A program made the translations under genes and the position numbers. Of a stretch of 31,373 nucleotides of DNA, positions 3,566-31,315 are shown piece after piece. The number at the start of each line of letters is the position of its first letter. Position 1 is the stretch's first letter. This DNA comes from Nanobdellota archaeon (GTDB taxonomy: Archaea; Nanobdellota; Nanobdellia; Woesearchaeales; UBA583): the NCBI GenBank assembly GCA_036146255.1, contig JAYYJK010000062.1, positions 1 to 31,373 of the forward strand. Direction: 5' to 3'. The notes beneath the pieces were generated by a model that did not search any database, was not told the origin of the DNA, and saw nothing but the letters and a program-made list of their open reading frames with translations.

Positions 3566-4654
3566 CTAAAAATCATCCCAGTCATCTACACTTGAAGACT
3601 GTGAATAATTAGTTACAGTTGATTCGAAGAAATTTGATTTTACTCCGTCATTATTTTCATCAGCTAATTTTTCTAAGTGTGCATATGGATTAACATCATA
3701 TCCTTCATAGAGTTCATCAAATCCTAGCATTTTGATTCTCATGTTAGCTAAGAATTTTGTATATTTCTCAGTTGATTGTTCATTAATTCCTAAGATGTGA
3801 TTATCTAAAATGTGATTTGACCACTCAATTTCTTGTTGTACTGCTTCATCAAACATTTGGTGTACAAGTTCTTGAGTAATTAATCCTGGTTTTTCATCTT
3901 TTAGAGCTAAAATAATGTTTTTGAAAATTGTAACGTGAGTTAATTCATCTCTGTTAATATACCTAATTTCATCTGCTACACCCATCATTAAATGTCTTGA
4001 GGCTAAGTTATAGAAGAAGTTAAACCCATTGTAGAAATACAGACCTTCTAAAATAAAGTTAGCAACTAAAACTCTTGCAAATGTTTCATCATTTGGTGTA
4101 TCAATAAAGTTTTGAAAAATTGTTGCAATATATTTATTTCTCTCTAATAAAATTTTGTCATCTCTCCAGAAATCATAGATTTTAGCTCTCTCTGAAGCAG
4201 GTACAATTGATTCTAATATGTATGCATATGATTGTGAGTGAATTGCTTCTTGATATGTTTGAATTGCTAGAAGTGTTGAGACTTCTGGTGCTGTAATATA
4301 ATCTGCAATGTTTGGAACATTATTTGTCTGCAAAGAATCAAGGAAAACTAAAAATGAAATTGTTCCTTTGAATGCTTTGAGTTCGTGTTTAGATAATTTC
4401 TTATAATCTTTGATATCATTGGATAAATCTACTTTTTCTGGAACCCAAAAATTTCCCATCATTACACGATACATATTTTTTGCCCAAGAGTATTTCGTAT
4501 CATTTAAATTAAATAAATTAGTTGTATCTCCTCCTGTAATTTTTCTATTTTGAACTTTATCATTACCTTCTGGGTTAAATAATTTTTTTTTTGATACTTC
4601 AGTTTCATTAACTGTATTTAATCCTATTTCTTCATCACTAAATTGAATTGACAT
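3566..4654 (-). CDS. nrdB: class Ia ribonucleotide reductase beta subunit
   Basis: Ferritin-like ligands FLDSLQ (D), QEAIHSQSY (E, H and radical Tyr at E+7), LEGLYFYNGF (E), RDELTH (E, H); FWVPEKVDL and NFFE motifs. Confidence 0.95.
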   Translation of the reverse strand: MSIQFSDEEIGLNTVNETEVSKKKLFNPEGNDKVQNRKITGGDTTNLFNLNDTKYSWAKNMYRVMMGNFWVPEKVDLSNDIKDYKKLSKHELKAFKGTISFLVFLDSLQTNNVPNIADYITAPEVSTLLAIQTYQEAIHSQSYAYILESIVPASERAKIYDFWRDDKILLERNKYIATIFQNFIDTPNDETFARVLVANFILEGLYFYNGFNFFYNLASRHLMMGVADEIRYINRDELTHVTIFKNIILALKDEKPGLITQELVHQMFDEAVQQEIEWSNHILDNHILGINEQSTEKYTKFLANMRIKMLGFDELYEGYDVNPYAHLEKLADENNDGVKSNFFESTVTNYSQSSSVDDWDDF

Positions 4655-4749: not shown

Positions 4750-7041
4750 TCAACCTGAGCAACTTACGCATTCTTCTTTTTGAGATTCTGCTGTTTTTGT
4801 AATTGATCTAATGTAATATACAGTCTTACATCCTTTCTTCCAAGCGTTAAGGTATAACATGTAAATATCTTTAGCTTTCATTCCATTTTTCATGTTAAGT
4901 ACAAGTTCCATGGAAATTCCTTGATCTGTCCATTTTTGAATTCTTGAACATACATCAATTACTTTTTGTTGATCAACATTTTGGTTTTCTTGATATGTCC
5001 AGAATGTTGTTTTATCTAAAAACGGAGGACATACAGGAACTGCTCCATTTGATGCTTTATCTACAAAGAATTTTCTATAAATTGGAAGAACTGATGCTGT
5101 TGCTCCCATCATAAGTGATGTTGAAGTATTTGGTGCAATTGCAAAAATACCTCCATTTCTCATTCCTTGCTCTTTTACTTTTTTTCTTAATTCTTTCCAC
5201 TCTTTTGGAAGGGATGAGTGTTCATTAAACCATTTGAAATTTCTTCCAAAGAACTTACCTTTAGACCAATCTGATCCTTCAAAGTATTTGTAAGGTTTTC
5301 TAAGTTTTGCTAAATTTGCTGATTCATCAATTCCTGCAAGTGCGATATGTTCAAATACTTTATCTGCTTCTTCTGCTGCATTTGAATACGGAATTCCTCT
5401 TTTAGCCAGATAATCTGCAAACCCTAATGATCCTACTCCTAAAATTCTATATTCATCATTGTGTCTTTTAGCTTCAGGAATTGGAGGAGCTGAGACATCA
5501 ATAGTGTTATCTAAAATTCTAACTGCTAAACGAGTTGATTTTTTAGCATCTTCAATTGTATCAAATTGAGCCCAATTTAGAGAAACTAAGTTACATGTAT
5601 GTGTGTGACCTGTTTCAACTTCCTGAGTAACTCGAGTTCCATCCTTAGAGAGTGTTTTTGGACTAACTTTTGAGGGTGAAAAATTTGAAAATGACTCAGT
5701 ACATAAATTTGCATTTCCAATCATACCATTGTGTTTATTTGGATTAGTGTTATTTGTGTTTTCTTTAAAAAAGACATAAGGAAGCCCAGTCTCTACTGTT
5801 GTTTTTAAGATTTCTTTCATAATTGATTTTGCATCAACTTCTTTTTTAGATTCAATAGTTTCATTTGCTTCTAATTCAAGATAAGTCTTCTCAAATTTTT
5901 CTCCATAGAGTTCAGCTAGTTCAATATTGAATTTAGATCTTAATTCATGTGGGTCAAAGAGAGTCCATTTTTCATTGTTATCTACTCTATTCATGAAAAG
6001 ATCTGTGAGTACAACTTGAGGGAATACATCATAGGCTTTTTTCCTTTGATCTCCATTTTCATGTTGCATCGTTAAAAATTCTTCAATGTCTCTGTGCCAT
6101 ACATCTAAAGCTACAGTAATTGCTCCAGCTCTTGATCCAAGTTGATTTACAGCAACAGCAGTATCATTGATTAATTTAACCCAAGGTAATACTCCTCCTG
6201 ATGCACCTTTAATATTTTTAATTCGTGCACCTTCTGATCTTACTCTTGAAATGTTTACACCAACTCCTCCTGCGTTTTTAGAGATTTGACCTAATTGGTC
6301 AAGTGTGTAATAAATTGAATCTAGGGAATCATCCATTGCTGTAATGAAACAAGATGCTAAATTACCACCTGGTCTTCTTAAGTTTAAAATAATTGGTGTA
6401 GCGTATGAAATTTTTCTTGAAGCTGTTGCATGATAAATTGCTTTAGCAATTCTGAGTCTATCTTTTTTCTTCTCAGGTACAGCCATTAAAAGTGCAATTG
6501 TTGCATACATTTGTTGAGGGAGTTCAAATGTTTCACCATCTAATTTCATAAGATACCTTTTAGTCATAAGTGATACTGCAGCATAATCATATCCCTTATC
6601 ATACTCCATATCAATTTCTTTACCAAATTCTTTAATTTCTTCATCAGAATATTCTTCTACAACTTTTCTATCATAAATTCCTTCTTTTACAGCTTTTTTA
6701 ACAAATTTCAAATATGAACCATACCCAAATGAATCATAACCTTGTGTTCTTTTTGCTTTTTTGTAGAGGTTAAGAAGTCTAAGTCTTGCAGCTACTATCC
6801 TCCAGTCAAGATCTGAAAAATCATCATTAATTTTTGTTAGTGCAAGAGCTGAGTTAATTAACATTTCTTGAATTTGCTCAGTTGTCATTGAAGATGCCAT
6901 GTTTCCTTGAATATGACTCTCAAGAACTAAAGGATTTACTTTTGTTCCCTCACATGCCCATTCAATTACTTTTTTAATTTTCATTACATCAAAAGCAACT
7001 TTGCTTCCATCTCTTTTTGTTATTTTTATAATTGCTCCCAT
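4750..7041 (-). CDS. nrdA: class Ia ribonucleotide reductase alpha subunit with N-terminal ATP-cone
   Basis: ITKRDGSKVAFDVMKI ATP-cone; LASCF, ANLCTE (N-C-E catalytic triad), TCNLVSLN, APNTSTS, TVYYIRS (YY pair), C-terminal CVSC. Confidence 0.96.
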   Translation of the reverse strand: MGAIIKITKRDGSKVAFDVMKIKKVIEWACEGTKVNPLVLESHIQGNMASSMTTEQIQEMLINSALALTKINDDFSDLDWRIVAARLRLLNLYKKAKRTQGYDSFGYGSYLKFVKKAVKEGIYDRKVVEEYSDEEIKEFGKEIDMEYDKGYDYAAVSLMTKRYLMKLDGETFELPQQMYATIALLMAVPEKKKDRLRIAKAIYHATASRKISYATPIILNLRRPGGNLASCFITAMDDSLDSIYYTLDQLGQISKNAGGVGVNISRVRSEGARIKNIKGASGGVLPWVKLINDTAVAVNQLGSRAGAITVALDVWHRDIEEFLTMQHENGDQRKKAYDVFPQVVLTDLFMNRVDNNEKWTLFDPHELRSKFNIELAELYGEKFEKTYLELEANETIESKKEVDAKSIMKEILKTTVETGLPYVFFKENTNNTNPNKHNGMIGNANLCTESFSNFSPSKVSPKTLSKDGTRVTQEVETGHTHTCNLVSLNWAQFDTIEDAKKSTRLAVRILDNTIDVSAPPIPEAKRHNDEYRILGVGSLGFADYLAKRGIPYSNAAEEADKVFEHIALAGIDESANLAKLRKPYKYFEGSDWSKGKFFGRNFKWFNEHSSLPKEWKELRKKVKEQGMRNGGIFAIAPNTSTSLMMGATASVLPIYRKFFVDKASNGAVPVCPPFLDKTTFWTYQENQNVDQQKVIDVCSRIQKWTDQGISMELVLNMKNGMKAKDIYMLYLNAWKKGCKTVYYIRSITKTAESQKEECVSCSG

Positions 7042-7179
7042 TTTTTAATAAAATATAGTAAAAACACAAAGAGTGATTCTTTGAATTACTATAAAAGATG
7101 TGAAATTTAATTGAAAATAAATCTCATTTTTGTTTAAACTTCTCCTAGATAAGAAATTTAAAGGATTTGGTAGTATTGT

Positions 7180-7195
7180 ACACAACATTTAGTGT
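7180..7195. promoter_or_regulatory. NrdR box 1 (ACACAACATTTAGTGT)
   Basis: 16-bp imperfect palindrome fitting the NrdR consensus acaCwAtATaTwGtgt; starts 32 bp before box 2; upstream of nrdA. Confidence 0.8.
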
Positions 7196-7211
7196 TGTTT
7201 TTTTTAAAAAA

Positions 7212-7227
7212 CCACTATATCTTGTGT
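7212..7227. promoter_or_regulatory. NrdR box 2 (CCACTATATCTTGTGT)
   Basis: 2 mismatches to ACACTATATATTGTGT; contains ACTATATCTTGTG, which recurs three times in this intergenic region. Confidence 0.85.
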
Positions 7228-7253
7228 CGATAAAGAAAATATTTTGTTTTGTA

Positions 7254-7262
7254 TATATAAAA
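7254..7262 (-). promoter_or_regulatory. putative archaeal TATA box of the nrd operon (TTTTATATA on minus strand)
   Basis: Matches the TTTAWATA-type consensus; a start site about 25 nt downstream would fall at or next to NrdR box 2. Confidence 0.5.
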
Positions 7263-7281
7263 TTATTGTTTCTACAGCTGG

Positions 7282-7297
7282 GTACAACACACAGTGT
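7282..7297. promoter_or_regulatory. degenerate NrdR box 3 (GTACAACACACAGTGT)
   Basis: Weak consensus match, but lies exactly 33 bp before box 4, the same period as boxes 4-5. Confidence 0.4.
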
Positions 7298-7314
7298 TAA
7301 GAAATTTTAATCAA

Positions 7315-7330
7315 ACACAAGATATAGTAG
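7315..7330. promoter_or_regulatory. NrdR box 4 (ACACAAGATATAGTAG)
   Basis: Reverse complement CTACTATATCTTGTGT shares the 13-mer ACTATATCTTGTG with boxes 2 and 5. Confidence 0.8.
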
Positions 7331-7347
7331 GAAGTGAACCTTATTGC

Positions 7348-7363
7348 ATACTATATCTTGTGG
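7348..7363. promoter_or_regulatory. NrdR box 5 (ATACTATATCTTGTGG)
   Basis: Third copy of ACTATATCTTGTG; 33 bp after box 4 and inverted relative to it. Confidence 0.78.
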
Positions 7364-7544
7364 TTCTTTAATTTTAGAGAAATGGGGAAAGAAGAAAAAA
7401 TAGGCCTTTATTTTCATAAAAAACTTTTTATTTTATTGTATGAGTTATGTTGCTAGTTGTGGGAGTGACAAATAGCTAAGAAAAATTATATCAATATCAA
7501 ATATTTTAATCAGATTTTTAAATTCATTAAACTTAATATTTTCT

Positions 7545-8606
7545 ATGAACGATATACAACGTACTAATTTTATTGAAGAAATTAAGAATCACGCTTATCT
7601 TATCTTAAAACAACATTATAAAATCTCAGTCTCTGCTAGGGTATCAGTTATTTTTGATACAGAAACTGAACTCTCACAGATGCTAAAGGAAGGATTTGAA
7701 GGTGCAATTCAAAAGCATGCAAATTCTTATGATCTCCATGATTATGCTTCTTTTGATCATCAAGAATATTTTGATGATTTAGATTGGAATGCAAGAGAAG
7801 GAGATATTGCAATTTTAATTCAATCAACTTCATTTAGATCAACTAAATTTAGATTTAGAAATGATTTATGTACAAGAGGTCTTAAAGTAATTGAATTTGG
7901 ACACCTTCACAAAGTATTAGAAGAAGAGTATCAAACATTTATTGATTCTCTAAAACCTGATGACGAGAGGATTTTCCCTTTAGTTGATTCTTTGGTTGAA
8001 GAATTAAAAGATATCAAGTCAATTGAAATTACATCAATGAATGGCTCAGTTGCTAAATATTCAGGCCCTATGGATTTTGCAACAACAAATGATGGAAGAT
8101 ATGAGGGTCAAACTAATTATGGGTCAAGATATCCAATTGGAGAAGTTATCTCAGAAGGTTTAGATTTATCTACTTTAAATGGAGACATTGAAGTGTATGC
8201 ATATCCATCCATTGAAGGACAATTAACACAATTTGTTGATCCATTTACAGTTACTATTGAAAATGGGTTTGTAGTTAGTCATAATGGACCTAAAGAATTT
8301 GATGATTTAATTGAACTCATTAAAACAGAACACCCAGATGGTAAAGTATATGTAAGAGAATTTGGACTTGGACTTAATAGAAATATTCCTAGACATTCTA
8401 GAATTGGTGATCCTATTGCTTATGAGAGACAAGAAGGTCTGCATTTTTCTTTGGGTATGAAACATGGTATCTACCAAAAGAAACTTTGGCCAAAATATGG
8501 TAAAAAGTTTAAGCAAAAATTTCACATCGATGTTTATGTTAATGCTAAGTCAATTACATTTAATGAAAAACAAGTATATACATATCCGCAAGGATTTATA
8601 TTGTAA
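7545..8606 (+). CDS. aminopeptidase-T / peptidase M29-like metalloprotein
   Basis: YPIGEV, LNGDIEV, VTIENGFV, VREFGLGLN, ERQEGLHFSLG resemble the M29 (COG2309) C-terminal metal-binding domain. Confidence 0.6.
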   Translation: MNDIQRTNFIEEIKNHAYLILKQHYKISVSARVSVIFDTETELSQMLKEGFEGAIQKHANSYDLHDYASFDHQEYFDDLDWNAREGDIAILIQSTSFRSTKFRFRNDLCTRGLKVIEFGHLHKVLEEEYQTFIDSLKPDDERIFPLVDSLVEELKDIKSIEITSMNGSVAKYSGPMDFATTNDGRYEGQTNYGSRYPIGEVISEGLDLSTLNGDIEVYAYPSIEGQLTQFVDPFTVTIENGFVVSHNGPKEFDDLIELIKTEHPDGKVYVREFGLGLNRNIPRHSRIGDPIAYERQEGLHFSLGMKHGIYQKKLWPKYGKKFKQKFHIDVYVNAKSITFNEKQVYTYPQGFIL

Positions 8607-17055: not shown

Positions 17056-18855
17056 TTAAATTATATCTTGATTTTCAATACTTATTGGCTTTTTTTTTAT
17101 TTTTCCTAGGATGTTTAATAATTCTTCCTCGAGTAAAATATTATCTTGTATTAAATCACATACATATAATGCAAGTTCATATTTTGTTTTATTGTAGTAA
17201 GAGCATAAAATTTCCGAAAATTTTTTTTCTTCTAAATTCAATGTTTTTTTATTAAGCTTAGAGTCAAAAATTTTATTTAGAGATTTAATAAATAAACCTT
17301 CATCGTTAATGTCTAATAATTCTTTATTCTCATAGATAGCTTCTGCAAAAACTTTAAATTTGAAATCCCTAGGATATTTTTTAAGTATTTTTAGATCATC
17401 CGGTAATTTTAATAGATGTTTTGGATAATAATCTTCTAGTTCTCCTTTTGATAGTATGTGTATATTATCATCATATAAATTATCAATTTCAATTTTATTC
17501 TCAAGGTTTAATGCATCATTATCTAAAATTATGTGATATGGTATTTCAAACTTATTTAAAATTTTTATAAAATTATTTACATTATCTTTGCTATTCATAT
17601 TTATTATTGAACAATTATTAAATGTTTCTTCGAGCTTAAGAATATGACTAAAAAAAACCTTATCAGATAGTCCCTCTACAAGTATAACATAATCAGAAAA
17701 TAAAAATTCTGAATTCTCTTCTTTCACTACTTTTTGAAATAATTTATATAAATCCTTCTCTTCTTTATTTAAAACAAAACTGCGAGTTATATTTGAATTA
17801 TAATTCTTTTTAAATATGATTAATTGATCTGGGTTTGAATTTATTACAAATTTATCCGAATGTGATGTCAAAATAAATTGATTTTTAATGTTTGATAATT
17901 TTATATTCAAATTTTTTTGGGCTATAGGATGTAAATATAATTCAACTTCATCAATGCAAATGATTGGTAGAAATTGAAAAAAATCGTTTGCTTTCAGTAT
18001 TAAACTAAATAAAAAAAGGTTTTGTAACCCACATCCTTTAAATGATAAATCTTGTTCTTTACCGTCATTAACAATAATAGTTAAATTATCTAGTAAAAAT
18101 TCAGACTTTTTATATAAAGAAGTCAAAGGGTCTGAAAAGATATCTTCTTTCAACTCTTCCTTAGGAATAAATTTTATTGATTTTATTTCTGGAAAAAAAC
18201 TTTCCAACATGCTTTTTTCTACTGAAAAAAACCAATCATTAAAAAGATTATAAAAGTTACCTGTATTTAATTTTGATTCTGTAGAAGATATAAATTTCAT
18301 AATTAAATTTGTTATAATTAATCTAAAAGAAATACTAGAACTATCTTTTTGAAAATCATCTGATTTAATAATATCAAGAGTTCTATTAGTATCAAAAACC
18401 AAAGAATTAAAATAACGATATGTAGCAATTTTAACATATTCGTTAAAGTTACAATTATCATCATAATAGAAAGTTCCTTCTTCTCCGTATTTCCTTTCAA
18501 ATTTTAAATGGAATAATATTTTTCCTCCCTCTAGTTCAGTATAAACTCTTCGTTCACTGACTGGATTTGTAAATTCTTCTATATTTTTCACCTCCTCTTC
18601 ATCAAAACTAAAAAAAAGTTCAATTTTTATTGGATAATTGATATCGTGATATAAATTTTCATCATTAAACCTTTCATCAAACACAGGATTATCCTTCCCT
18701 TTATTAAATGGATTTAGCATTAATTTAATAGCTTCTAAAAATGCAGATTTTCCAGAATTATTTTTTCCAATAATTACATTTTTATTTTCATCAAGATTTA
18801 AATCGAGCTTCACAAAAGATTTAAAGTTTTCAATTCTAATCCTAACTAACTTCAT
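17056..18855 (-). CDS. OLD-family ATP-dependent nuclease (ABC ATPase + TOPRIM)
   Basis: IENFKSF, Walker A GKNNSGKS, signature-like GCGLQ, Walker B/D-loop IDEVELYLHP, TSHS; TOPRIM VILVEGLSD and ILDND; ELEDYY. Confidence 0.9.
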   Translation of the reverse strand: MKLVRIRIENFKSFVKLDLNLDENKNVIIGKNNSGKSAFLEAIKLMLNPFNKGKDNPVFDERFNDENLYHDINYPIKIELFFSFDEEEVKNIEEFTNPVSERRVYTELEGGKILFHLKFERKYGEEGTFYYDDNCNFNEYVKIATYRYFNSLVFDTNRTLDIIKSDDFQKDSSSISFRLIITNLIMKFISSTESKLNTGNFYNLFNDWFFSVEKSMLESFFPEIKSIKFIPKEELKEDIFSDPLTSLYKKSEFLLDNLTIIVNDGKEQDLSFKGCGLQNLFLFSLILKANDFFQFLPIICIDEVELYLHPIAQKNLNIKLSNIKNQFILTSHSDKFVINSNPDQLIIFKKNYNSNITRSFVLNKEEKDLYKLFQKVVKEENSEFLFSDYVILVEGLSDKVFFSHILKLEETFNNCSIINMNSKDNVNNFIKILNKFEIPYHIILDNDALNLENKIEIDNLYDDNIHILSKGELEDYYPKHLLKLPDDLKILKKYPRDFKFKVFAEAIYENKELLDINDEGLFIKSLNKIFDSKLNKKTLNLEEKKFSEILCSYYNKTKYELALYVCDLIQDNILLEEELLNILGKIKKKPISIENQDII

Positions 18856-21194: not shown

Positions 21195-22178
21195 TCAACC
21201 CTCTTTCAAAACTTCCCTTACTTTCTCTTCTAATTCTTTCTTATCAGGCAAATATAATTTATATCTTGATGCAAAGAGTTGATCATTATCTAAGGGAAGA
21301 GAATATTCAACTACTTGTTCTTTTTTATCTAAACATAAAAGAATTCCTATGGTTTTATTTTCTTCAGGAGATTTTACTTTTCTATCATAATAATTTACAT
21401 ACATTTGTAGTTGTCCTAAATGTTCATGCTTAAGTTCTCCAACTTTGAGTTCAAATATTACAAAGCATTTTAAGAAACGATTGTAAAAAACTAAATCAAT
21501 GTAAAAATATGTTGAATCTAGGATTATTTTTTCTTGTCTCGAAACAAATGAAAATCCTTTACCTAACTCCAAAATAAACTTCTGCAAATTATCAATTAAC
21601 TTTTGTTCCAAATCACTCTCAGATAATTTCTCTATTCCATCAAGTCCTAGAAATTCAAAAATAAAAGGATCTTTGATTAAATCTTTACCTGATTCAATTA
21701 CTTGTCCTTTCTTTGACAATTCTATAACTCCTCTTCTATCTCTGGATAATGCTATTCTCTCAAATAAAGCTGAATTAATTTGTCTTTGAAGTTCACGAAC
21801 TGACCAATTCTGAGACTCAATTTCCTTGATATAAAAGTTTCTTTTTATCTTATCTTCTATCCTTAAAAGTGTGCAATAGTGTGACCATCCCAAAAGGCCA
21901 GACAGTGTCTGGCTTTTTGGAAAGAGAATATATAACTTCTTCATATCTTTCAAATTAGATAAACTAAAACCTTTCCCATACTGTTTAGTTAACTCCTTAG
22001 ATAGTTCTTTCAGTAATCCTTTCCCATACTCAGCTTTAATTTCACCTTTCTGTTCTTCTTCAACTATCTTACGACCAATCTCCCAATAAGCTTTTACCAT
22101 AATAGTATTAATTTGTGTAACTGCTTGTTTTCTAGCATTCTCTATGATTATACCTATATCTTTTGAAATTGTTTTCAT
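21195..22178 (-). CDS. yhcG: YhcG / DUF1016 PD-(D/E)XK nuclease family protein
   Basis: AYWEIGRKIVEEEQ, LGWSHY, WSVRELQRQINS.LFER, KDPFIFEFL, ELGKGFSFV.RQ, YIDLVFYNR.LKCFV.FELK, GQLQMYVNYYD, IGILLC. Confidence 0.95.
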   Translation of the reverse strand: MKTISKDIGIIIENARKQAVTQINTIMVKAYWEIGRKIVEEEQKGEIKAEYGKGLLKELSKELTKQYGKGFSLSNLKDMKKLYILFPKSQTLSGLLGWSHYCTLLRIEDKIKRNFYIKEIESQNWSVRELQRQINSALFERIALSRDRRGVIELSKKGQVIESGKDLIKDPFIFEFLGLDGIEKLSESDLEQKLIDNLQKFILELGKGFSFVSRQEKIILDSTYFYIDLVFYNRFLKCFVIFELKVGELKHEHLGQLQMYVNYYDRKVKSPEENKTIGILLCLDKKEQVVEYSLPLDNDQLFASRYKLYLPDKKELEEKVREVLKEG

Positions 22179-25141
22179 CTTTTCACCTCAAAGTATTCAG
22201 TTAATTCTACTCTTGTCACTATAGTTATTTTCAAGTCACCAAGTAATCTCTCATAATATCTTTTCATTTTAGAATTCGTTAATACAATAATTACTTTATC
22301 ATATTCTTGAGAAACTGTTAAAAACTTTTGATATATCCTCTTTTTATGATACTTGAATCTAATTCCTGTCTCTACTTCTATTGCAATTTGTTTATCTTCA
22401 TTTGTGAGAACTAATAAATCTACATCCTTGACAACATTGACTTTGACTGTTTTAACATAAGGTTTTAGAAATTCTTTGATATTATGGACAATAAATGTAT
22501 GTTCAATACTTTCTACATCATTTGTTTTAACCCAAACTTCTTCAAACTTTACTTTATTTATTGGAACTAAGTTTGCAACTTTATATCCGTTTAATCCAAG
22601 TAAATTCTTTTCTCCTCTTGATAATACTTTTCCATAATAAAATCCTTTTTCTAGATCTAGTGTAATTTTACCATTCAATACAACATTTTTCTTTGTAACT
22701 ATAGTTCCATTTAATTCGTCTGGATTTGTTGTAATTATTTTATTTTCTTTAGGTGAAGCTACAACTTCAATTTCTTGATGTTCATTCTCTAAGATTAAAA
22801 TACCTCTTCCTTTAACTGAAGTTAATAGATAATCTTTTTCAACTTGAGACAAATTGAATGTTTTAACTACACTTGATATGACTGATGGTTTTTGTCTTAG
22901 TAATAAAGTATAAGATGAGTTTGAGAGAACTGCACTTCCTGCTTTTGATGATAATAAATCTTCTACATCTTGAGTTATTAATAATAACCCTAAATTGAAT
23001 TTACGACATGTCTTTACAATTTCAAAAATATATGATGCTTCTTCAGTTTTAGATAATAAAGACCATGCTTCATCAATTACAAGTAATTTTCTCTCTTTAC
23101 TTGACTTCATTCTAGAATATACAAATTCTAATACTAAAAACATTACAAGAGGTTTTACTTGTTTAGGCATGTCACCTATATTAAAACATACAAAATTTGA
23201 TTTAAAGTTAAGATTAGTTTCTCTATTCATGAAAGAAAATACTCCATGAGTAAACATGAATAATCTATTTAAAAGTGCCTGATAAGTTGTCTTTTCAATC
23301 CTATTTGCTTTTTTAGATAAGAGTTCTAATTCTTTGTATAAATCTCCTAGAATTGGCATTGAGGTATTTTCTTTTGAATTCTTTGTAATATTCTTTCTTG
23401 CATAAGTATTTGTTAAAGCTTTATCTAAAATTGCTTTTTGAATTTCAGATAATTCACCAAACATAATTTTAAACATATCCATTAGAGATAATCTTTTTTC
23501 AATATAGTCATGTCCCATTAAATCTAGAGGATTAATAATTGTCTCTGAATTTCTAGAAATTGTAATTAATTCTCCTTTAGAATAATTTGTCAAGTTAACA
23601 TACTCTCCTTGTGGATCAATTACTATTACTTGTGTATTTTGAAGTAGATGTCTTAATATTAATAACTTTGTAAAATATGATTTACCAGAACCTGATGTTG
23701 CTAAAATTACTCCATTTGCATTAGATAAATTATAGATATCTCTAATGATTGGAATTTTATTTTTATTTAATCCTAAAAAGATTCCATTCTCTTCCATTGA
23801 TAAGAAAGGCGAAGTTAGAGGGAAAAATGCAGATAAAGCATTAGTCGTAATATTTCTAGTTTCACCTATTTTATTTTGGGCTTTAGGTATTAAGCTTTGA
23901 TATCCTATGAATTGTTTAAATAAAGGAATTTTTGGTTGTATCATAATTGAATTTAATTCAGCTTCAACTTTCTTTGTTAGATAATCTAAATTTTCTTTTG
24001 AAGTTGATTTACAATTAATTATTAAAGAGATGTTGAATAATTTCTCTTCACCTTTTTGCAAATTGTCTAATACTTTTCTTGTATCTTTAAACTTAATTTC
24101 AAGCGAAGGATTAATTGAACCTTTAAGTTCCTCTGAATATAGATCAGCTCTTTGTTTTTGTAACTCTCTATTAAGCATAAGCATAGTTGATTCAATTGAT
24201 AAAGGTTCAATGTGAATTGTAATATCAAAGTCATCATTTGTAGATATTATCTTATCTAGAAATCCTTGCTCAACAACTCTTGGATATCCTGAAGTTGTAA
24301 TTACTCTTGAGAATTTCTCATTGAGTAAAAGATGATTATATTTCTCATCAATAAAACTTGGACCAATATTAAAGTTTAAACTATTTTGAAATTTTTCTTG
24401 AGTTTTATTTGATTCATTTGAACTATTAAAAAATAGATGTATTGTATTAACTAGTTGATTTGTATTCAATCTTTTTGAAGAGATTCCCAAATTTCTAAAT
24501 CTATCAATACATATATTTGTTTGAATTTCGATATTTGATATCTCTAAAATAGAGAGGTAGAATTTTCTATTTCTGATCTCTTTTTCAGAAATAAAATTTT
24601 TGATAAATTCTGAGAAATCTTCGTATAATTCTTGCTCATCATTTTTTTGTTTTAAATTTGTAAGATAGTCTTTAATGGATAAATTCTCTGTGGTTATTAC
24701 AAATTGAACTGGAAAATCAAGGGAATTTAGAAATTTCTGAAATGATTTAATAATTGAATATTTGTCATCGTCATTTCTAATTGAAAAGTTAATTGGTTGA
24801 ATTTCAAGAATAGATACTTTTCCCTTCTTTGTATATATGACATCATTTTCAATTTTATCAATATTAATTAGATCTTCAATTTTCATTTTTTGATTTGAAA
24901 ATTTAAATTTTAAAAATTGTAGGATATTAATTAACTTCTCAGAGAAATTAAAGAACATAAATCCTAAACCTAGTATGATAAAAGGTGAAGATAGTATTGA
25001 GAAGATATAGATATTAGAATTATTTTTAAATAATATCAATACTGGAATTAAAAAGATAAATGCATAAAATAACTGTGTTAATGTTAAATTAAATATGATT
25101 TTTTCTTTATGTTTAAGTTCTTGTGGTATTTCATAGGACAT
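22175..25141 (-). CDS. virB4: VirB4-like conjugation ATPase with N-terminal PrgI/VirB3-like membrane domain and C-terminal nuclease-like extension
   Basis: N-terminal YEIPQELKHKEKIIFNLTLTQL + 2 TM (PrgI-like); Walker A ATSGSGKS; IDPQGEY, INPLD; Walker B VIDEAW; RKFNLGL..ITQDVED; GRGIL; about 180-aa tail with EH..V, D and IAIEVETG. Confidence 0.85.
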   Translation of the reverse strand: MSYEIPQELKHKEKIIFNLTLTQLFYAFIFLIPVLILFKNNSNIYIFSILSSPFIILGLGFMFFNFSEKLINILQFLKFKFSNQKMKIEDLINIDKIENDVIYTKKGKVSILEIQPINFSIRNDDDKYSIIKSFQKFLNSLDFPVQFVITTENLSIKDYLTNLKQKNDEQELYEDFSEFIKNFISEKEIRNRKFYLSILEISNIEIQTNICIDRFRNLGISSKRLNTNQLVNTIHLFFNSSNESNKTQEKFQNSLNFNIGPSFIDEKYNHLLLNEKFSRVITTSGYPRVVEQGFLDKIISTNDDFDITIHIEPLSIESTMLMLNRELQKQRADLYSEELKGSINPSLEIKFKDTRKVLDNLQKGEEKLFNISLIINCKSTSKENLDYLTKKVEAELNSIMIQPKIPLFKQFIGYQSLIPKAQNKIGETRNITTNALSAFFPLTSPFLSMEENGIFLGLNKNKIPIIRDIYNLSNANGVILATSGSGKSYFTKLLILRHLLQNTQVIVIDPQGEYVNLTNYSKGELITISRNSETIINPLDLMGHDYIEKRLSLMDMFKIMFGELSEIQKAILDKALTNTYARKNITKNSKENTSMPILGDLYKELELLSKKANRIEKTTYQALLNRLFMFTHGVFSFMNRETNLNFKSNFVCFNIGDMPKQVKPLVMFLVLEFVYSRMKSSKERKLLVIDEAWSLLSKTEEASYIFEIVKTCRKFNLGLLLITQDVEDLLSSKAGSAVLSNSSYTLLLRQKPSVISSVVKTFNLSQVEKDYLLTSVKGRGILILENEHQEIEVVASPKENKIITTNPDELNGTIVTKKNVVLNGKITLDLEKGFYYGKVLSRGEKNLLGLNGYKVANLVPINKVKFEEVWVKTNDVESIEHTFIVHNIKEFLKPYVKTVKVNVVKDVDLLVLTNEDKQIAIEVETGIRFKYHKKRIYQKFLTVSQEYDKVIIVLTNSKMKRYYERLLGDLKITIVTRVELTEYFEVKR

Positions 25142-26523: not shown

Positions 26524-29397
26524 TTACTTTAAGTAAATTTCTTGGATTAGGTTTAATATTTTCTTTTTTACATATTGTGTTTCAAATTTAATTTCAATTT
26601 CTGAATTAAAAAGTTTTTCTGCATGTTTAATTTTTCTTTTTTCTTCTTCTCTTAAACTATCATCATCAGTATTTTTGGTTTCAACAACTAAATTTAATTT
26701 TTTATTTCCATTTTTAAAATTTAGAACATACGCAAAATCAGGAGAATAGGTTTTTCCTCCAGCTACTGGAATTTTAATTGAATTCTTTGGGATTTTAGTA
26801 AAAACAACAACTTCAGTTAAATTTTGTTGAATATTCTCTTTTTCTAATTCAGAATCATAAAATAATTCATCAAAAATATAATTTTCTGCTACTTTCTCTT
26901 CAGAATATGAAATACCTACATTTGAGGAATCAATTTCAGTTAAAACATCTCCTTTTCCGTCAGTAATCTTTGTTGGGTGAATTGAATTTGTAACTTTTTG
27001 ATATTCAATACTAAATTTTTCTATTGCATTATATAGTAAATAGTTGTCAAATTTTTGCTTAAAAATTCTGATTGTATTTTGATTCAAATACTTATTAATT
27101 TCAGTTTTAGTATCAATAAAACTTTGGTGTATTGTTTTCAGATTAATATTTAATATATTTGATAGTTGAATTAAAAAATCATCATATTTCATTGTTGAAA
27201 TTGGAGTTATCTCATTTTCAGAAATATTATATTCTTCGTGACTTTGGGCAGAGTTGTTTTCAATTTCAAGTTTAACTATTTTCTCTTGTACTCCTTCAAT
27301 AGAAAAAAATGTGTTATTATTTAGAAAATCTATGAATAATTCTTTAAATTTAGATTCATTTTCAATTTTATATTCTAAAATTACTTTTTCATTTAATTTC
27401 TCCCACAATTCTTTTAATTCAGAATATTTTTCAGCTCTAATTTTAACTTTTTTTTTCAAATTTGAGGATTTTCTAATTTTATTTGAATCAATTCCTTCAA
27501 AAATCAAAGGAAAATTAGATTTAATATAGTCAAATCCATTTTCTTTAAAATCATTATTTCTTTTAATAATATCTTTTTCATCTAATTGATCTAAAAGTGC
27601 ATCTTCTGTTAAATTATATTTTTCAATAATTTGTTTTATCATATTATTATCTAATTTAATTGGAATATTCTCTCTTGAAATTGCACCTGACTTCTCATTA
27701 ATTTCATTAACTAACCTTTCTACAAAGTCATTTTCTGTAAAGTCAACAAAATAGTTTAAATAAAATTGCTCTTCTTTGACTCTGTTGAAAAATTCATTTA
27801 CAGGAAGTCTTAAACCTCTACCAACTTCTTGTAATTTGGAAGTTTCAGAACCACTACTTCTTAATTTACAGATTTGAAAAATATTTGGATTGTCCCAACC
27901 TTCTCTAAGTGTCCATTTTGAAAAAATAAATCTTCTGGGATTATTTAAATTTAATATTGATTTTTTATCATGTAAAATTTCAGTAACTTCTTTTTCAATA
28001 GATTCTTCACTATTTTTATTATCTTCTGAAAAATAACCTCCATGTGTTTTAGGAATATCTTCTAATGTTTTTTTTAAATAATTTTTATAAAATTCATTAT
28101 TTTCAGTTTTTAACAAATTTTCAACTTCTGATTTGATATATTTTTCAACAATTAATCTAATTGAACCATTCTCATTTCTATATTCTTCAATGTTATCAAT
28201 AAAAAAAAGAGATAGTGGTTTAATTTTAACTTCCCTAGTAAGGTATTTTTTTTCTTGTTGAAAATGATTTTTAATAGTTTTTTTAATCATAGTTTCTTGA
28301 AGTGTTTGGGAATAAGAATAAGGATTTATTTTATCTCCTTTTTTTAATTCTAATCCATTTGATAAAATAATTGTATTTTTATTTAAATTTTCAATATATA
28401 AATCACTCATTGCCGGATGAACTTTTTCTAAACTATCTTTTTTTATTAATTTAAATGTTTTCTTTTTAATATCCTCATTGAGTTCTAAGGTTGCTTCTTT
28501 ACCATCAGAATTATTAAATTTAACTAAAATATTTTCTCCATTCTCAAATTCAGTAATATGTGCTGTAACTCCTTTAACAAGATTCCTATTAAATGAATCT
28601 ACAGCTGTTAATGTATATACTAAATTTTCATAAGCATTATCTTTAAATGTTGCTCCATATCTTAAAATAAACTGAGGTTTGATATGTTCTGTAATATTTT
28701 TCCAAGATTTTCCTGTGTCCCCAAATTTATGTGGTTCATCAATAATCATAAATGGCTTTGTTGAAGAAATTGCTTCAAATGGTATTGAATATTTATCTAA
28801 TAAAGATTTATCATAACTCTCCAACATTTTTTTAGAATTAATCATCCCACTATTAATAATTAAAACCTGAATTTTATTCTTTTCAAATTTACCTGAATTT
28901 ACAAAACTAGTCACAGCAGTTGGCATATATGATTTTTGGTTTTTTCTAACTTTTTGACTTTCAATAATATGTAAATTAATTGTTTTCCCATATTGTTCTT
29001 TAAAATGTTCTTTAGTACTATCAGAAGTTAAAAAATCTATAGTTCCTGCTTTAATTGGAAGAGTTGGGACAACAATAATAAATTTATTAATTCCATGAAT
29101 TTTATTTAATTCAAATATTGTTTTTGTATAAGTATAAGTTTTTCCGGTTCCAGTTTCCATCATAATATCAATAATATTACTTTTTCCTTTTACATTTCTT
29201 TCAATATTATTTTGTTCTTGAATATTCCCAATATTATTTACATATGTGAAATTTGATTCTGTGTCAAAAATTGGATTTGTGAAATCTTTATATAAATTTT
29301 GCGAATTCTTGATATCAAGAGAATTAAAAACACCTATTGTTGATTTAACAGCTTGTGTTTGATGATCTAAATTTTTTTCGAAGTTAAAATTTGACAT
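26524..29397 (-). CDS. res: type III restriction-modification endonuclease/helicase subunit Res
   Basis: METGTGKT, IIDEPH, LREGWDNPN, QEVGRGLR, C-terminal nuclease SPDF...VVETK. Confidence 0.95.
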   Translation of the reverse strand: MSNFNFEKNLDHQTQAVKSTIGVFNSLDIKNSQNLYKDFTNPIFDTESNFTYVNNIGNIQEQNNIERNVKGKSNIIDIMMETGTGKTYTYTKTIFELNKIHGINKFIIVVPTLPIKAGTIDFLTSDSTKEHFKEQYGKTINLHIIESQKVRKNQKSYMPTAVTSFVNSGKFEKNKIQVLIINSGMINSKKMLESYDKSLLDKYSIPFEAISSTKPFMIIDEPHKFGDTGKSWKNITEHIKPQFILRYGATFKDNAYENLVYTLTAVDSFNRNLVKGVTAHITEFENGENILVKFNNSDGKEATLELNEDIKKKTFKLIKKDSLEKVHPAMSDLYIENLNKNTIILSNGLELKKGDKINPYSYSQTLQETMIKKTIKNHFQQEKKYLTREVKIKPLSLFFIDNIEEYRNENGSIRLIVEKYIKSEVENLLKTENNEFYKNYLKKTLEDIPKTHGGYFSEDNKNSEESIEKEVTEILHDKKSILNLNNPRRFIFSKWTLREGWDNPNIFQICKLRSSGSETSKLQEVGRGLRLPVNEFFNRVKEEQFYLNYFVDFTENDFVERLVNEINEKSGAISRENIPIKLDNNMIKQIIEKYNLTEDALLDQLDEKDIIKRNNDFKENGFDYIKSNFPLIFEGIDSNKIRKSSNLKKKVKIRAEKYSELKELWEKLNEKVILEYKIENESKFKELFIDFLNNNTFFSIEGVQEKIVKLEIENNSAQSHEEYNISENEITPISTMKYDDFLIQLSNILNINLKTIHQSFIDTKTEINKYLNQNTIRIFKQKFDNYLLYNAIEKFSIEYQKVTNSIHPTKITDGKGDVLTEIDSSNVGISYSEEKVAENYIFDELFYDSELEKENIQQNLTEVVVFTKIPKNSIKIPVAGGKTYSPDFAYVLNFKNGNKKLNLVVETKNTDDDSLREEEKRKIKHAEKLFNSEIEIKFETQYVKKKILNLIQEIYLK

Positions 29398-29398
29398 T

Positions 29399-31315
29399 TT
29401 AATACCTCTTTACAAAATCAATTTCACTTCCTTTTTTATTGTTATAATTTTTAACATTCTCAGAAATTTCTCTTAACATTTTACTTTCAAAATTATATCC
29501 AAAACATATAATTGATGTTGGATTAAACTCTGAATCTTCATCAATTTTATTTAATAATTCTTTTAAATTTTTAGTTTTAAAATTAATATCCATTAAATAT
29601 AACTTATTTCCAAAATAGTATCCTGTATAGTCATTTAAGTCAACTTCAACTAAGTCTTTTGTTAATGGAATATTATCATAAGTTTTCCATGTAGTTAATA
29701 ATGTTTGAATATCTTCAGAATTTAATTTACTTTCATTAAACAGTTTAGTTTGGGGATTAAATTCATCTAAATCTAAATTATAATTTTTCCAAATTGGAAT
29801 TGTTTCAAAAATTTTAAATCCAAAATCAATATTTGTTAAATCTTTATTATTTTCTTTTATTTTATTTGCAGCTCTAACTAATCTTTCTTTAGTAATATGA
29901 AATATTGTTGGGTTTTCTTCTTTTAATTCATTTTTAACAAAATCATAGGCAACCTTATCTTTTTTCTTATCAATTTCCTGAGGTATTTGAACTAAAATAA
30001 ATTTTCTATTCCCCAAATTATTTGTATTTAATTGCATAATTGCATCTGCTGTCGGCCCAGACCCTGCAAAGAAATCTAAAATAATTTCATTCTCATTTGA
30101 ATTCGTTGCTAAAATTAAAAATCTTTTTATTAAATCAATAGGTTTAGGATATCCAAACACACTTTTTCCTTCAAATAGTTCTGTCAATTTTTTTCTAGCT
30201 CCATCGGTATGCCCAACTTCATCATAACTTAAAATTGTTTTGGTTATAATTCCATCCATATCAGCTAAATAAGTTTTCATCCTTGGTCTTTTTGAAGTAT
30301 CATCCGGCAAATAAATTCTATTCTCTAAAATCAAAGATTTCATTCTTTCCTCAGTAAATTGCCATTGTTTTCCATCAGGTAATTTATATATTTTATTACC
30401 TGATTTAATATCGTAAGTATAACCTTTACCCTGATCAATAGTTAAATCTGATTTAGTATATCTTCCCCTACCATCATTATCATCACAATTATAATGTTTA
30501 TTAGTTTTCTCTGTTCTTTCTAATCTATTAAATTTTTCAATTTTTTCTAAAGCTTTAGCATAACATAATATATATTCATGATCAGTTGTTGTATATTTAT
30601 TTTGATTTTTTGGACTATATATTTTTTGCCAAATAAATTCTGAAATAAAATTCTCTTCACCAAAGATTTCATCCATTAAAAATCTCAATTGAGCAACTTC
30701 ATTATCATCAATAGAAATGAAAATAACTCCATCATCTTTTAATAATTGTTTAGCAATATATAACCTTGGATACATGAAAGTAAGCCATGCACTATGAGAA
30801 TTACTTTTACTTTCTGTAAATTTTAATATTTTTTCAGCTTTATCTTTATCAACTCCTGCTAACTCTGATAATTCTTCAGAAGTGAATTTTCTATCATCTT
30901 CATAAACAAATCCATCTGATCCCGTATTATATGGTGGGTCAATATAAATCATCTTAATTTTCTCTTCATAATTATTAGATAAATGTTTTAAAACTTCTAG
31001 ATTGTCTCCTTTTAAAAGTAGATTCTCCGAATTTTTATTTTCATCTCTAGAATTCCATTCTTTATCTTCTTTTAACAAAGTAGTTGCAGAATCTGTTGCT
31101 AGAAGTCTAGCATAACTTTTTCCTAACCAATCTAACCCATAACTTTCTTTAGAAAAGTCAATTTCACTTTTCAAAAGGATTTTTTTAAACTTTTCAATAT
31201 CAAAATTGCTTTCTTTGTCAAAACAATGCGAAAAATGTTTTTGTAGAATTTCTAATTCCTTATTTGGAACTTTAATGTCATTTGTAATAGTTTCTTTAAC
31301 TATATCCTTGCTCAT
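29399..31315 (-). CDS. mod: type III restriction-modification DNA methyltransferase Mod (beta class, probably m6A)
   Basis: KGDNLEVLK, motif IV IDPPYNTG, HSAWLTFMYPRL, PKP, motif I LDFFAGSG; directly upstream of res. Confidence 0.95.
   Translation of the reverse strand: MSKDIVKETITNDIKVPNKELEILQKHFSHCFDKESNFDIEKFKKILLKSEIDFSKESYGLDWLGKSYARLLATDSATTLLKEDKEWNSRDENKNSENLLLKGDNLEVLKHLSNNYEEKIKMIYIDPPYNTGSDGFVYEDDRKFTSEELSELAGVDKDKAEKILKFTESKSNSHSAWLTFMYPRLYIAKQLLKDDGVIFISIDDNEVAQLRFLMDEIFGEENFISEFIWQKIYSPKNQNKYTTTDHEYILCYAKALEKIEKFNRLERTEKTNKHYNCDDNDGRGRYTKSDLTIDQGKGYTYDIKSGNKIYKLPDGKQWQFTEERMKSLILENRIYLPDDTSKRPRMKTYLADMDGIITKTILSYDEVGHTDGARKKLTELFEGKSVFGYPKPIDLIKRFLILATNSNENEIILDFFAGSGPTADAIMQLNTNNLGNRKFILVQIPQEIDKKKDKVAYDFVKNELKEENPTIFHITKERLVRAANKIKENNKDLTNIDFGFKIFETIPIWKNYNLDLDEFNPQTKLFNESKLNSEDIQTLLTTWKTYDNIPLTKDLVEVDLNDYTGYYFGNKLYLMDINFKTKNLKELLNKIDEDSEFNPTSIICFGYNFESKMLREISENVKNYNNKKGSEIDFVKRY

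What the first reader, a model, noticed from the sequence alone, without database searches (positions are those of the whole stretch)
7180..7363. Array of 4-5 NrdR boxes surrounding an archaeal TATA promoter
Seen: boxes start at 7180, 7212, 7282 (weak), 7315 and 7348, spaced 32, 70, 33, 33; ACTATATCTTGTG occurs three times. Established: NrdR binds tandem 16-bp boxes about 3 helical turns apart, usually as one pair. Here one pair covers the predicted start site downstream of TATA (7254-7262) and a trio lies upstream. Inference: a bacterial nucleotide-sensing repressor wired onto TBP/TFB transcription, possibly by DNA wrapping or looping; I know of no characterised archaeal example.
Basis: partly seen in the sequence, partly recalled or inferred. 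Interest (0 to 1): 0.68.

Follow-up and report, generated by a model that had tools for sequence, protein, structure and literature searches.

The report
Five-site NrdR operator, small archaeon
In one genus of tiny uncultured archaea, the genes that make DNA building blocks have four strong and one weak binding site for the repressor NrdR at fixed distances on both sides of the TATA box, and that NrdR has a changed sensor residue: a known switch in a layout I found no description of.

Summary
The boxes are real: 7180/7212 and 7315/7348 are the two best NrdR-box pairs in the genome (35.7 and 35.2 bits; simulated genomes reach 23). They precede nrdA-nrdB-nudix-nudix-like-nrdR of a Woesearchaeales archaeon. 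The TATA box is 7261-7254 (minus strand); the inferred start (~7231) lies about 5 bp before the downstream pair, so that pair blocks polymerase rather than centring on the start. NrdR in archaea is known (22% of genomes; this scan found ordinary two-box archaeal operators on other DNA), and Listeria nrdAB has two pairs. What is new here is the layout. A-B-weak C / TATA / D-E is kept with near-fixed spacing (B to TATA 66-70 bp, A to D 132-136 bp) in 23 promoters of this genus, before class I, II and III enzymes, while other Woesearchaeales mostly have one pair after TATA. The genus' NrdR is a long-branch clade with His at the ATP/dATP switch tyrosine. Best reading: two NrdR tetramers clamp one promoter. 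Looping is unsupported, activation from the upstream trio is not excluded, and nothing is tested biochemically.

The parts
7348..7363 (.). NrdR box A (strong; upstream pair)
   Evidence: 17.6 bits, all six conserved positions; 11/16 positions identical across three lineages whose flank is 6/30 identical
7315..7330 (.). NrdR box B (strong; 33 bp from A; 69 bp before TATA)
   Evidence: 17.6 bits; 14/16 identical in three lineages; B-to-TATA 66-70 bp in 25 promoters
7282..7297 (.). Box C: weak third box in register (33 bp from B), conserved right half-site; ends about 20 bp before TATA
   Evidence: 5.6 bits, chance-level alone; half-site starts at B+41/42 in 19 of 25 promoters; 11/16 identical in three lineages
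7254..7268 (-). BRE (7268-7262) and TATA box (7261-7254) of the nrdA operon promoter
   Evidence: best hit, 10.0 bits, of a matrix trained on this genome's own promoters; no comparable plus-strand or upstream TATA
7231..7232 (-). Predicted transcription start (inferred)
   Evidence: TATA-to-ATG peak at 29 nt in leaderless genes of this genome; pyrimidine-purine step at 7232-7231
7212..7227 (.). NrdR box D (strongest in genome; about +5 to +20)
   Evidence: 19.0 bits, rank 1 of 944,756 positions; TATA-to-D 31-36 bp in 21 promoters
7180..7195 (.). NrdR box E (strong; 32 bp from D)
   Evidence: 16.7 bits; D-to-E 31-33 bp
7042..7179 (-). About 140-nt leader after box E with three predicted hairpins; role unknown
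   Evidence: z = -4.3 against shuffles; 60 other intergenic stretches reach -3.9 at best; no Rfam family above its gathering score
4750..7041 (-). nrdA, class I ribonucleotide reductase alpha subunit with N-terminal ATP-cone
   Evidence: TIGR02506 above cut-off, PF02867, PF00317, PF03477; best plasmid-collection hits are Cetobacterium and Fusobacterium at 47-49%
3566..4654 (-). nrdB, beta subunit
   Evidence: NF007184 above cut-off, PF00268
3110..3559 (-). NUDIX hydrolase
   Evidence: PF00293
2507..3109 (-). NUDIX-like protein
   Evidence: weak PF00293
2028..2510 (-). nrdR, the cognate regulator, last gene of the operon; His131 at the Tyr128/131 switch position
   Evidence: TIGR00244 above cut-off; only copy in the genome; alignment to 7P37 and 9FVR; fold match; residue survey

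Best explanation
This is the operator of an autoregulated ribonucleotide reductase operon. NrdR, made from the operon's last gene, binds as tetramers to pairs of boxes three helical turns apart and kinks the DNA. One tetramer on D-E (about +5 to +52) blocks RNA polymerase recruitment or escape downstream of TBP/TFB, as other archaeal repressors do. A second tetramer on the upstream module (A-B, or B-C in the alternative register, ending about 20 bp before TATA) adds cooperative or independent repression at the same promoter, tightening shut-off when the dATP-type signal is high. Shown: sites, spacing, conservation, gene content, residue changes. Inferred: start site, binding, sign of regulation, role of the upstream module, and the effector (His131 may change it).
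For: Top two box pairs in the genome lie at the only RNR operon found. DNA-reading residues are kept (both CxxC, D15, R17, R27-R29, R37). Spacers of 16-17 bp are in the range that represses in vivo (PMC12051234). In other Woesearchaeales and Thermoplasmata the pair follows TATA by 14-36 bp; sites after BRE/TATA repress in archaea (PMC4158304). The upstream boxes are under selection in this lineage although no TATA precedes them (score -8.2). The layout is kept in 23 promoters before class I, II and III enzymes. A distal second pair is known at Listeria nrdAB and proposed to tighten repression (PMC12051234). E. coli Y131A still represses in vivo (bioRxiv 2025.03.28.645925).
Against: No binding or transcription data. 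Upstream-of-BRE sites are usually activating in archaea (PMC4158304). Box C is weak by the published rules (A6G lowers affinity 4-10 fold; 63% AT is the lower limit; PMC13584703). A and B are 52-102 bp from TATA, too far for simple occlusion. The switch helix is remodelled (F124, I129, H131, Y134), so dATP dependence cannot be assumed. The conserved promoters are kin and the layout has one origin.
Confidence: 0.6

Rival explanations
1. Dual regulator: NrdR on the upstream A-B-C module stimulates TBP/TFB loading (like Ptr2, TFB-RF1 or TrmBL1 upstream of BRE), while D-E represses at higher occupancy or in another nucleotide state.
For: B-to-TATA is 66-70 bp in all 25 promoters, including four without D-E (68, 69, 70, 70). 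Two leaderless or near-leaderless nrdD promoters (G013, G017 second copy) have boxes only upstream of the proximal TATA. A, B, C and TATA centres fall roughly on one helical face (3.1, 6.2, 9.2 turns). The repressor's switch tyrosine is replaced in 19/19 genus proteins against 118/119 Tyr elsewhere.
Against: No NrdR is known to activate. Activation by the dATP-bound form would be maladaptive. Three of the four D-E-less promoters have another TATA 28 bp before A, the ordinary repressing geometry, and weak downstream TATAs, so only two promoters really lack a downstream site. An independent His-type NrdR (G173) has an ordinary single pair.
Confidence: 0.15
2. Tandem-promoter legacy: the array began as two promoter-plus-pair units; A-B is the operator of an upstream promoter that is weak, unrecognised or lost in this lineage.
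For: Four other Woesearchaeales families carry TATA-pair-TATA-pair units (pair offset 87-89 bp in four genomes). About a third of the genus promoters have a forward TATA of 7-14 bits 28-44 bp before A.
Against: In this window and in at least seven relatives no forward TATA precedes A (scores below 0), yet A and B remain strong and conserved. Many of those upstream TATAs are palindromic and sit 27-30 bp from a divergent leaderless gene. This can explain the origin, not the present retention.
Confidence: 0.12
3. Loop or wrap: one higher NrdR oligomer bridges A-B and D-E, or wraps the whole array, trapping the TATA box.
For: A-to-D is 132-136 bp (mean 133.9, SD 1.15) in 21 promoters; NrdR forms octamers with dATP (PMC9110341); T-tract/A-tract linkers are enriched (16/25, 20/25, 7/21 against 11% background); Ss-LrpB wraps three spaced boxes (PMC1802622).
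Against: Octamers dissociate into DNA-binding tetramers and higher oligomers bury the DNA-binding faces. 133.9 bp is 12.75 turns at 10.5 bp. The fixed distance follows from B-to-TATA plus TATA-to-D, and either module occurs without the other (G011; G012, G013, G017).
Confidence: 0.1
4. The conserved C half-site (and the TGTGA-N3/4-(T/G)CACA palindrome beside A in many relatives) belongs to another, unidentified factor; NrdR on A-B acts by excluding it.
For: C is conserved in a form that deviates consistently from the NrdR consensus; the second palindrome abuts A in about half of the promoters.
Against: C is in exact 33-bp register with B, has an NrdR-type right half and, in this lineage, canonical C4/G13; no conserved regulator gene was seen nearby; the second palindrome is absent from this window.
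Confidence: 0.08

Closest known systems
NrdR and NrdR-box pairs of Streptomyces coelicolor nrdRJ/nrdAB and E. coli (PDB 7P37, 7P3F, 7P3Q, 9FVR; PMC9110341, PMC12176259, PMC13584703)
   Same: Zn-ribbon plus ATP-cone regulator, 16-bp boxes with C4/A6/T11/G13, three-turn pairs, RNR target, autoregulation.
   Different: TBP/TFB promoter; five sites on both sides of TATA; spacers 16-17 bp; His131, Phe124, Ile129, Tyr134 in the switch helix; nrdR at the operon's end.
Listeria monocytogenes nrdAB promoter (two pairs 113 bp apart; PMC12051234, PMC13584703); also T. maritima nrdJ (three boxes) and P. aeruginosa nrdAB (third and fourth distal boxes; bioRxiv 2025.03.28.645925)
   Same: More than one pair at one RNR promoter; role of the distal sites unresolved.
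   Different: There the distal pair is weaker and a single-promoter oddity; here both pairs are equally strong and the spacing to the core promoter is fixed genus-wide and across RNR classes.
Ordinary archaeal NrdR operators (halophile nrdR-nrdAB, PMC3019208; other Woesearchaeales and Thermoplasmata)
   Same: nrdR linked to RNR genes; a pair shortly after TATA.
   Different: One pair only (50 of 54 with a pair), Tyr switch kept; none had a pair whose second box lies 66-70 bp before a good TATA.
Archaeal position-dependent regulators: TrmBL1/Tgr, Ptr2, TFB-RF1, MDR1, Phr (PMC4158304); Ss-LrpB three-box wrapping (PMC1802622)
   Same: Sites after TATA repress by blocking RNAP, sites before BRE can activate; regularly spaced trios can be wrapped.
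   Different: Unrelated protein families (HTH, not Zn-ribbon); analogy of layout only.

Membership tests
NrdR operator (pair of NrdR boxes) | 16-bp partial palindrome with C4, A6, T11, G13 and at least 63% AT core | tested here: met
   A, B, D, E meet all; C meets only C4/G13 with 62.5% AT (rules from PMC13584703)
NrdR operator (pair of NrdR boxes) | Two boxes with a 15-17 bp (or about 26 bp) spacer | tested here: met
   D-E 16 bp, A-B 17 bp, B-C 17 bp (range from PMC12051234)
NrdR operator (pair of NrdR boxes) | Upstream of RNR genes and overlapping the polymerase-bound region | tested here: inconclusive
   Upstream of nrdA; D-E at about +5 to +52 of an inferred start; A-B-C lie upstream of BRE, outside the core promoter
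NrdR operator (pair of NrdR boxes) | Pairs confined to RNR operons in the genome | tested here: met
   No other pair exceeds the simulated background in G000 (assembly 85% complete)
NrdR operator (pair of NrdR boxes) | Bound by NrdR only with dATP plus ATP/ADP; represses | not testable with these tools
   Needs binding and transcription assays
NrdR protein (TIGR00244) | N-terminal Zn-ribbon with two CxxC and Arg cluster, then ATP-cone | tested here: met
   147.7 bits against cut-off 124.65; PF22811 + PF03477; model matches NrdR structures
NrdR protein (TIGR00244) | Base-reading D15 and R17 | tested here: met
   Both kept in 19/19 genus proteins
NrdR protein (TIGR00244) | Nucleotide-site residues equal to S. 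coelicolor K50, E56, K62, K69, F124, V127 | tested here: met
   K53, K65, K72, F127, V130 kept; E56 is Gln59 here, as in 28/119 other NrdRs
NrdR protein (TIGR00244) | Switch tyrosine (S. coelicolor Y128, E. coli Y131) that tells ATP from dATP at the outer site | tested here: not met
   His131 in 19/19 genus proteins and 111/120 closest database homologues; Tyr in 118/119 other loci and 127 of 135 scorable distant representatives
Archaeal BRE/TATA promoter | TATA about 29-30 bp before the start, preceded by an A-rich BRE; TBP and TFB encoded | tested here: inconclusive
   Motif met; TBP found, TFB not found in this incomplete assembly but in 5/5 relatives; start not mapped

The most novel reading that the evidence does not exclude
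A His-switch NrdR subfamily of one Woesearchaeales genus has been rewired to act on the TBP/TFB complex from a phased A-B-C module upstream of the BRE, possibly as an activator or with altered nucleotide logic, in addition to blocking polymerase from D-E; the whole promoter module was kept while class II, class I and class III enzymes were swapped in behind it.
Probability: 0.2. Interest if true: 0.78.

Novelty: new variant of a known kind. Interest (0 to 1): 0.5.

Why it matters
No archaeal NrdR has been studied experimentally as far as my searches reached, and the role of extra NrdR boxes is open even in bacteria. This locus gives a compact test case: two equally strong pairs in fixed positions around a TATA box, natural variants lacking either module, and a natural substitution of the residue thought to read the 2'-OH of ATP. 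It would show how a nucleotide-sensing, DNA-kinking tetramer acts on TBP/TFB/RNAP and whether the switch tyrosine is dispensable. If the upstream module only adds repression, the gain is modest.

Tried and rejected
Repeat or RNA family: no Rfam match above gathering scores; BLAST of the operator and leader against the genome showed only short AT-rich matches (first 20 rows, all for the leader). Operator of the divergent gene 7545-8606: that gene has its own TATA at 7515 (leaderless geometry) and the 7254-7261 TATA has no plus-strand BRE. Second nrdA promoter before box A, or at -55/-29: no good TATA. Internal promoter before nrdB or nrdR: best 3.0 bits. Wider regulon in this genome: none above background. 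Three-box pattern across 301 genomes of the order: outside the genus, hits were about as many as for the reversed control and the three inspected were chance or ordinary single pairs. Link between His switch and array: one origin only, and an independent His-type NrdR (G173) has an ordinary pair, so no causal link is claimed. A TATA-like run in the A-B linker of relatives was considered as a promoter and set aside: it lacks a BRE, is absent here, and matches a general T-tract/A-tract linker signature. The NrdR tree is a quick tree; it shows a long-branch genus clade (SH-aLRT 100) but not its donor. No complex prediction was run.

Full report
Setting. The window is contig C62 of a 0.95-Mb, 28% GC, 85%-complete assembly. 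Close relatives of its NrdR come from records named Woesearchaeota or Nanoarchaeota, the neighbouring cbf5 gene is archaeal, and the genome encodes TBP. On the minus strand lie nrdA (4750-7041), nrdB (3566-4654), two NUDIX-type genes and nrdR (2028-2510). No internal promoter scores above 3 bits, so nrdR is probably transcribed with the operon (inference). No other RNR was found in the assembly.

The observation. I name them in the direction of nrdA transcription: A 7363-7348, B 7330-7315, C 7297-7282, D 7227-7212, E 7195-7180. A, B, D and E keep all six conserved NrdR-box positions; C keeps C4 and G13 only. With a matrix built from relatives and excluding this lineage, D-E and A-B are the two best pairs in the genome (35.7 and 35.2 bits), far above 12 simulated genomes (best 16-23). 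C alone is not above chance.

The promoter. A motif learned from 572 upstream regions of this genome shows a sharp TATA peak 29 nt before ATG, so most genes are leaderless, and gives a BRE/TATA matrix. The best site in the intergenic region starts at 7261 on the minus strand (10.0 bits; 0.15% of intergenic positions reach this). The start is therefore inferred at 7231-7232. D begins about 5 nt later and E ends about +52. No TATA precedes A (best -8.2 bits), and the divergent gene has its own TATA at 7515.

Conservation. The same order, A-B-C-TATA-D-E, was found in 15 genomes of the genus and 8 metagenome contigs: before nrdA (8), before nrdR-nrdJ (14) and before nrdD (1). For 21 non-redundant promoters: A-B 32-33, B-TATA 66-70 (SD 0.8), TATA-D 31-36, D-E 31-33, A-D 132-136 (SD 1.15), while E-to-ATG ranges from 18 to 168. 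Caveats: I anchored on B by eye and searched fixed windows (TATA B+62 to +75, D B+96 to +107); the observed ranges are narrower than the windows; some A and E boxes are degenerate; one TATA call (L229) is poor; the promoters are kin. C is a conserved half-site starting at B+41/42 in 19 of 25 promoters, usually with 9 bp between C and G, a form tolerated in one box of a pair (PMC13584703). Among three lineages closest to the window, boxes are 11-14/16 identical and outer flanks 5-6/30. Exceptions exist: G011 has D-E only; G012, G013 and G017 have A-B-C without D-E; a second G017 nrdD has one strong pair ending 22 bp before TATA; G006 is degenerate.

History. Some relatives have nrdR-nrdJ next to cbf5 (L235), others nrdA-nrdB-...-nrdR next to cbf5 (window, L228-L230), with homologous promoters. 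The simplest reading is that a bacterial-type class I operon (47-49% to Fusobacteriota proteins in the plasmid collection) replaced nrdJ behind a retained promoter; direction and donor were not tested with a tree.

Outgroup. NrdR is common in the order (108 of 131 genomes). Of 101 nrdR loci outside the genus, 50 have one pair, 4 have two and 47 have none directly before nrdR; the best TATA lies 14-36 bp before the first box. The two-pair cases, with two related ones, form a different design in four families: TATA-pair-TATA-pair, offset 87-89 bp, with a strong box 40 bp before the second TATA. None had the 66-70 bp geometry. Only nrdR-led promoters were surveyed.

The protein. NrdR of this genus is a long-branch clade (quick tree, SH-aLRT 100). 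Zinc ligands, D15, R17, R27-R29, R37 and most nucleotide-site residues are kept, and the model matches solved NrdR. The last ATP-cone helix is remodelled: F124, K/R126, I129, H131, Y134, where other NrdRs have Y, R, S, Y, F. H131 is S. coelicolor Y128, which flips to bind the 2'- and 3'-OH of ATP in the off state; Y128A co-purifies with two dATP (PMC9110341). E. coli Y131A is mostly dimeric in vitro but still represses in vivo (bioRxiv 2025.03.28.645925). So repression is likely kept, while the effector response and oligomer state may differ. Extra boxes could compensate for weaker tetramers, but this is speculation: the array and the His arose once together, and an independent His-type NrdR has an ordinary pair.

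Mechanism. Established: a dATP/ATP-loaded tetramer binds two boxes three turns apart and bends DNA by 180 degrees (PMC9110341); spacers of 15-17 bp repress (PMC12051234); archaeal sites after TATA block polymerase, sites before BRE often activate (PMC4158304). Inferred: D-E represses (about 85% likely). The upstream module is functional, since it is conserved without its own promoter, and most likely adds repression through a second tetramer (overall model 0.6). Activation or dual action (0.15), tandem-promoter legacy (0.12), looping or wrapping (0.10) and a second factor (0.08) remain; they are not fully exclusive.

Novelty. NrdR in archaea is reported (22% of genomes, PMC13584703; halophile nrdR-nrdAB, PMC3019208), extra boxes are known in Listeria, Thermotoga and Pseudomonas, and earlier notes of this scan describe ordinary archaeal two-box operators. 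I found no experimental archaeal study and no description of this five-site layout or of the His-switch clade (open-access library only). Verdict: real, a new variant of a known kind, interest 0.5.

Noticed in passing
window 7042-7179 (minus strand): About 140-nt leader after box E folds into three hairpins (z -4.3). Leaders of 140-155 nt after box E, mostly structured (z -2.9 to -4.9; one -0.7), also occur in G016, G018, L227 and independently in nrdR-nrdJ promoters of G001, G002, G011, in a genome where most genes are leaderless. Function unknown.
   Followed up: partly
promoters in L104, L108, L109, L111, L113, L141, L228, L231, L232, L235, directly 5' of box A: A second palindrome, TGTGA-N3/4-(T/G)CACA, abuts box A in about half of the genus promoters and is absent from this window; possible site of another regulator.
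   Followed up: no
L140, L028, L029 (G017, G012): A palindromic TATA with a strong reverse-orientation BRE (12-14 bits) lies 20 bp outside box A, mirroring the 19-20 bp gap between C and the forward TATA; in many other promoters this gap is 30-31 bp, one turn more. Some of these point at no nearby gene.
   Followed up: partly
L318:1998-2045 and L317 near 2058-2103 (G011); L319:2054-2101 (G012): NrdR-box-like pairs in intergenic DNA far from RNR genes; the two in G011 resemble each other and one lies near an integrase-like fragment.
   Followed up: partly
L290, L292, L296, L314, L286, L295 (four other Woesearchaeales families): A separate tandem design: TATA-pair-TATA-pair, with a strong box 40 bp before the second TATA and 57 bp before the next box.
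   Followed up: partly
G098:C11, G084:C8, G108:C1 (open frames 838-875 aa); G147, G140, G116 (partial matches): NrdR-family matches inside long open frames, suggesting NrdR or its zinc ribbon fused to an RNR in several Woesearchaeales.
   Followed up: no
window 17056-18855, 22175-25141, 26524-31315: OLD-like ATPase/TOPRIM nuclease, a PrgI/VirB4-like ATPase and a type III restriction-modification pair in a low-GC stretch (18-25% GC), suggesting an integrated mobile or defence island.
   Followed up: no
window 7545-8606 (+): 353-aa divergent gene without Pfam/NCBIfam match, homologues of similar length sit opposite nrdA in several relatives (L025, L027, L228, L229); aminopeptidase-like by eye only.
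   Followed up: no
G000 whole genome: TFB (PF00382) not found in this 85%-complete assembly but present in 5/5 relatives, so probably an assembly gap.
   Followed up: yes
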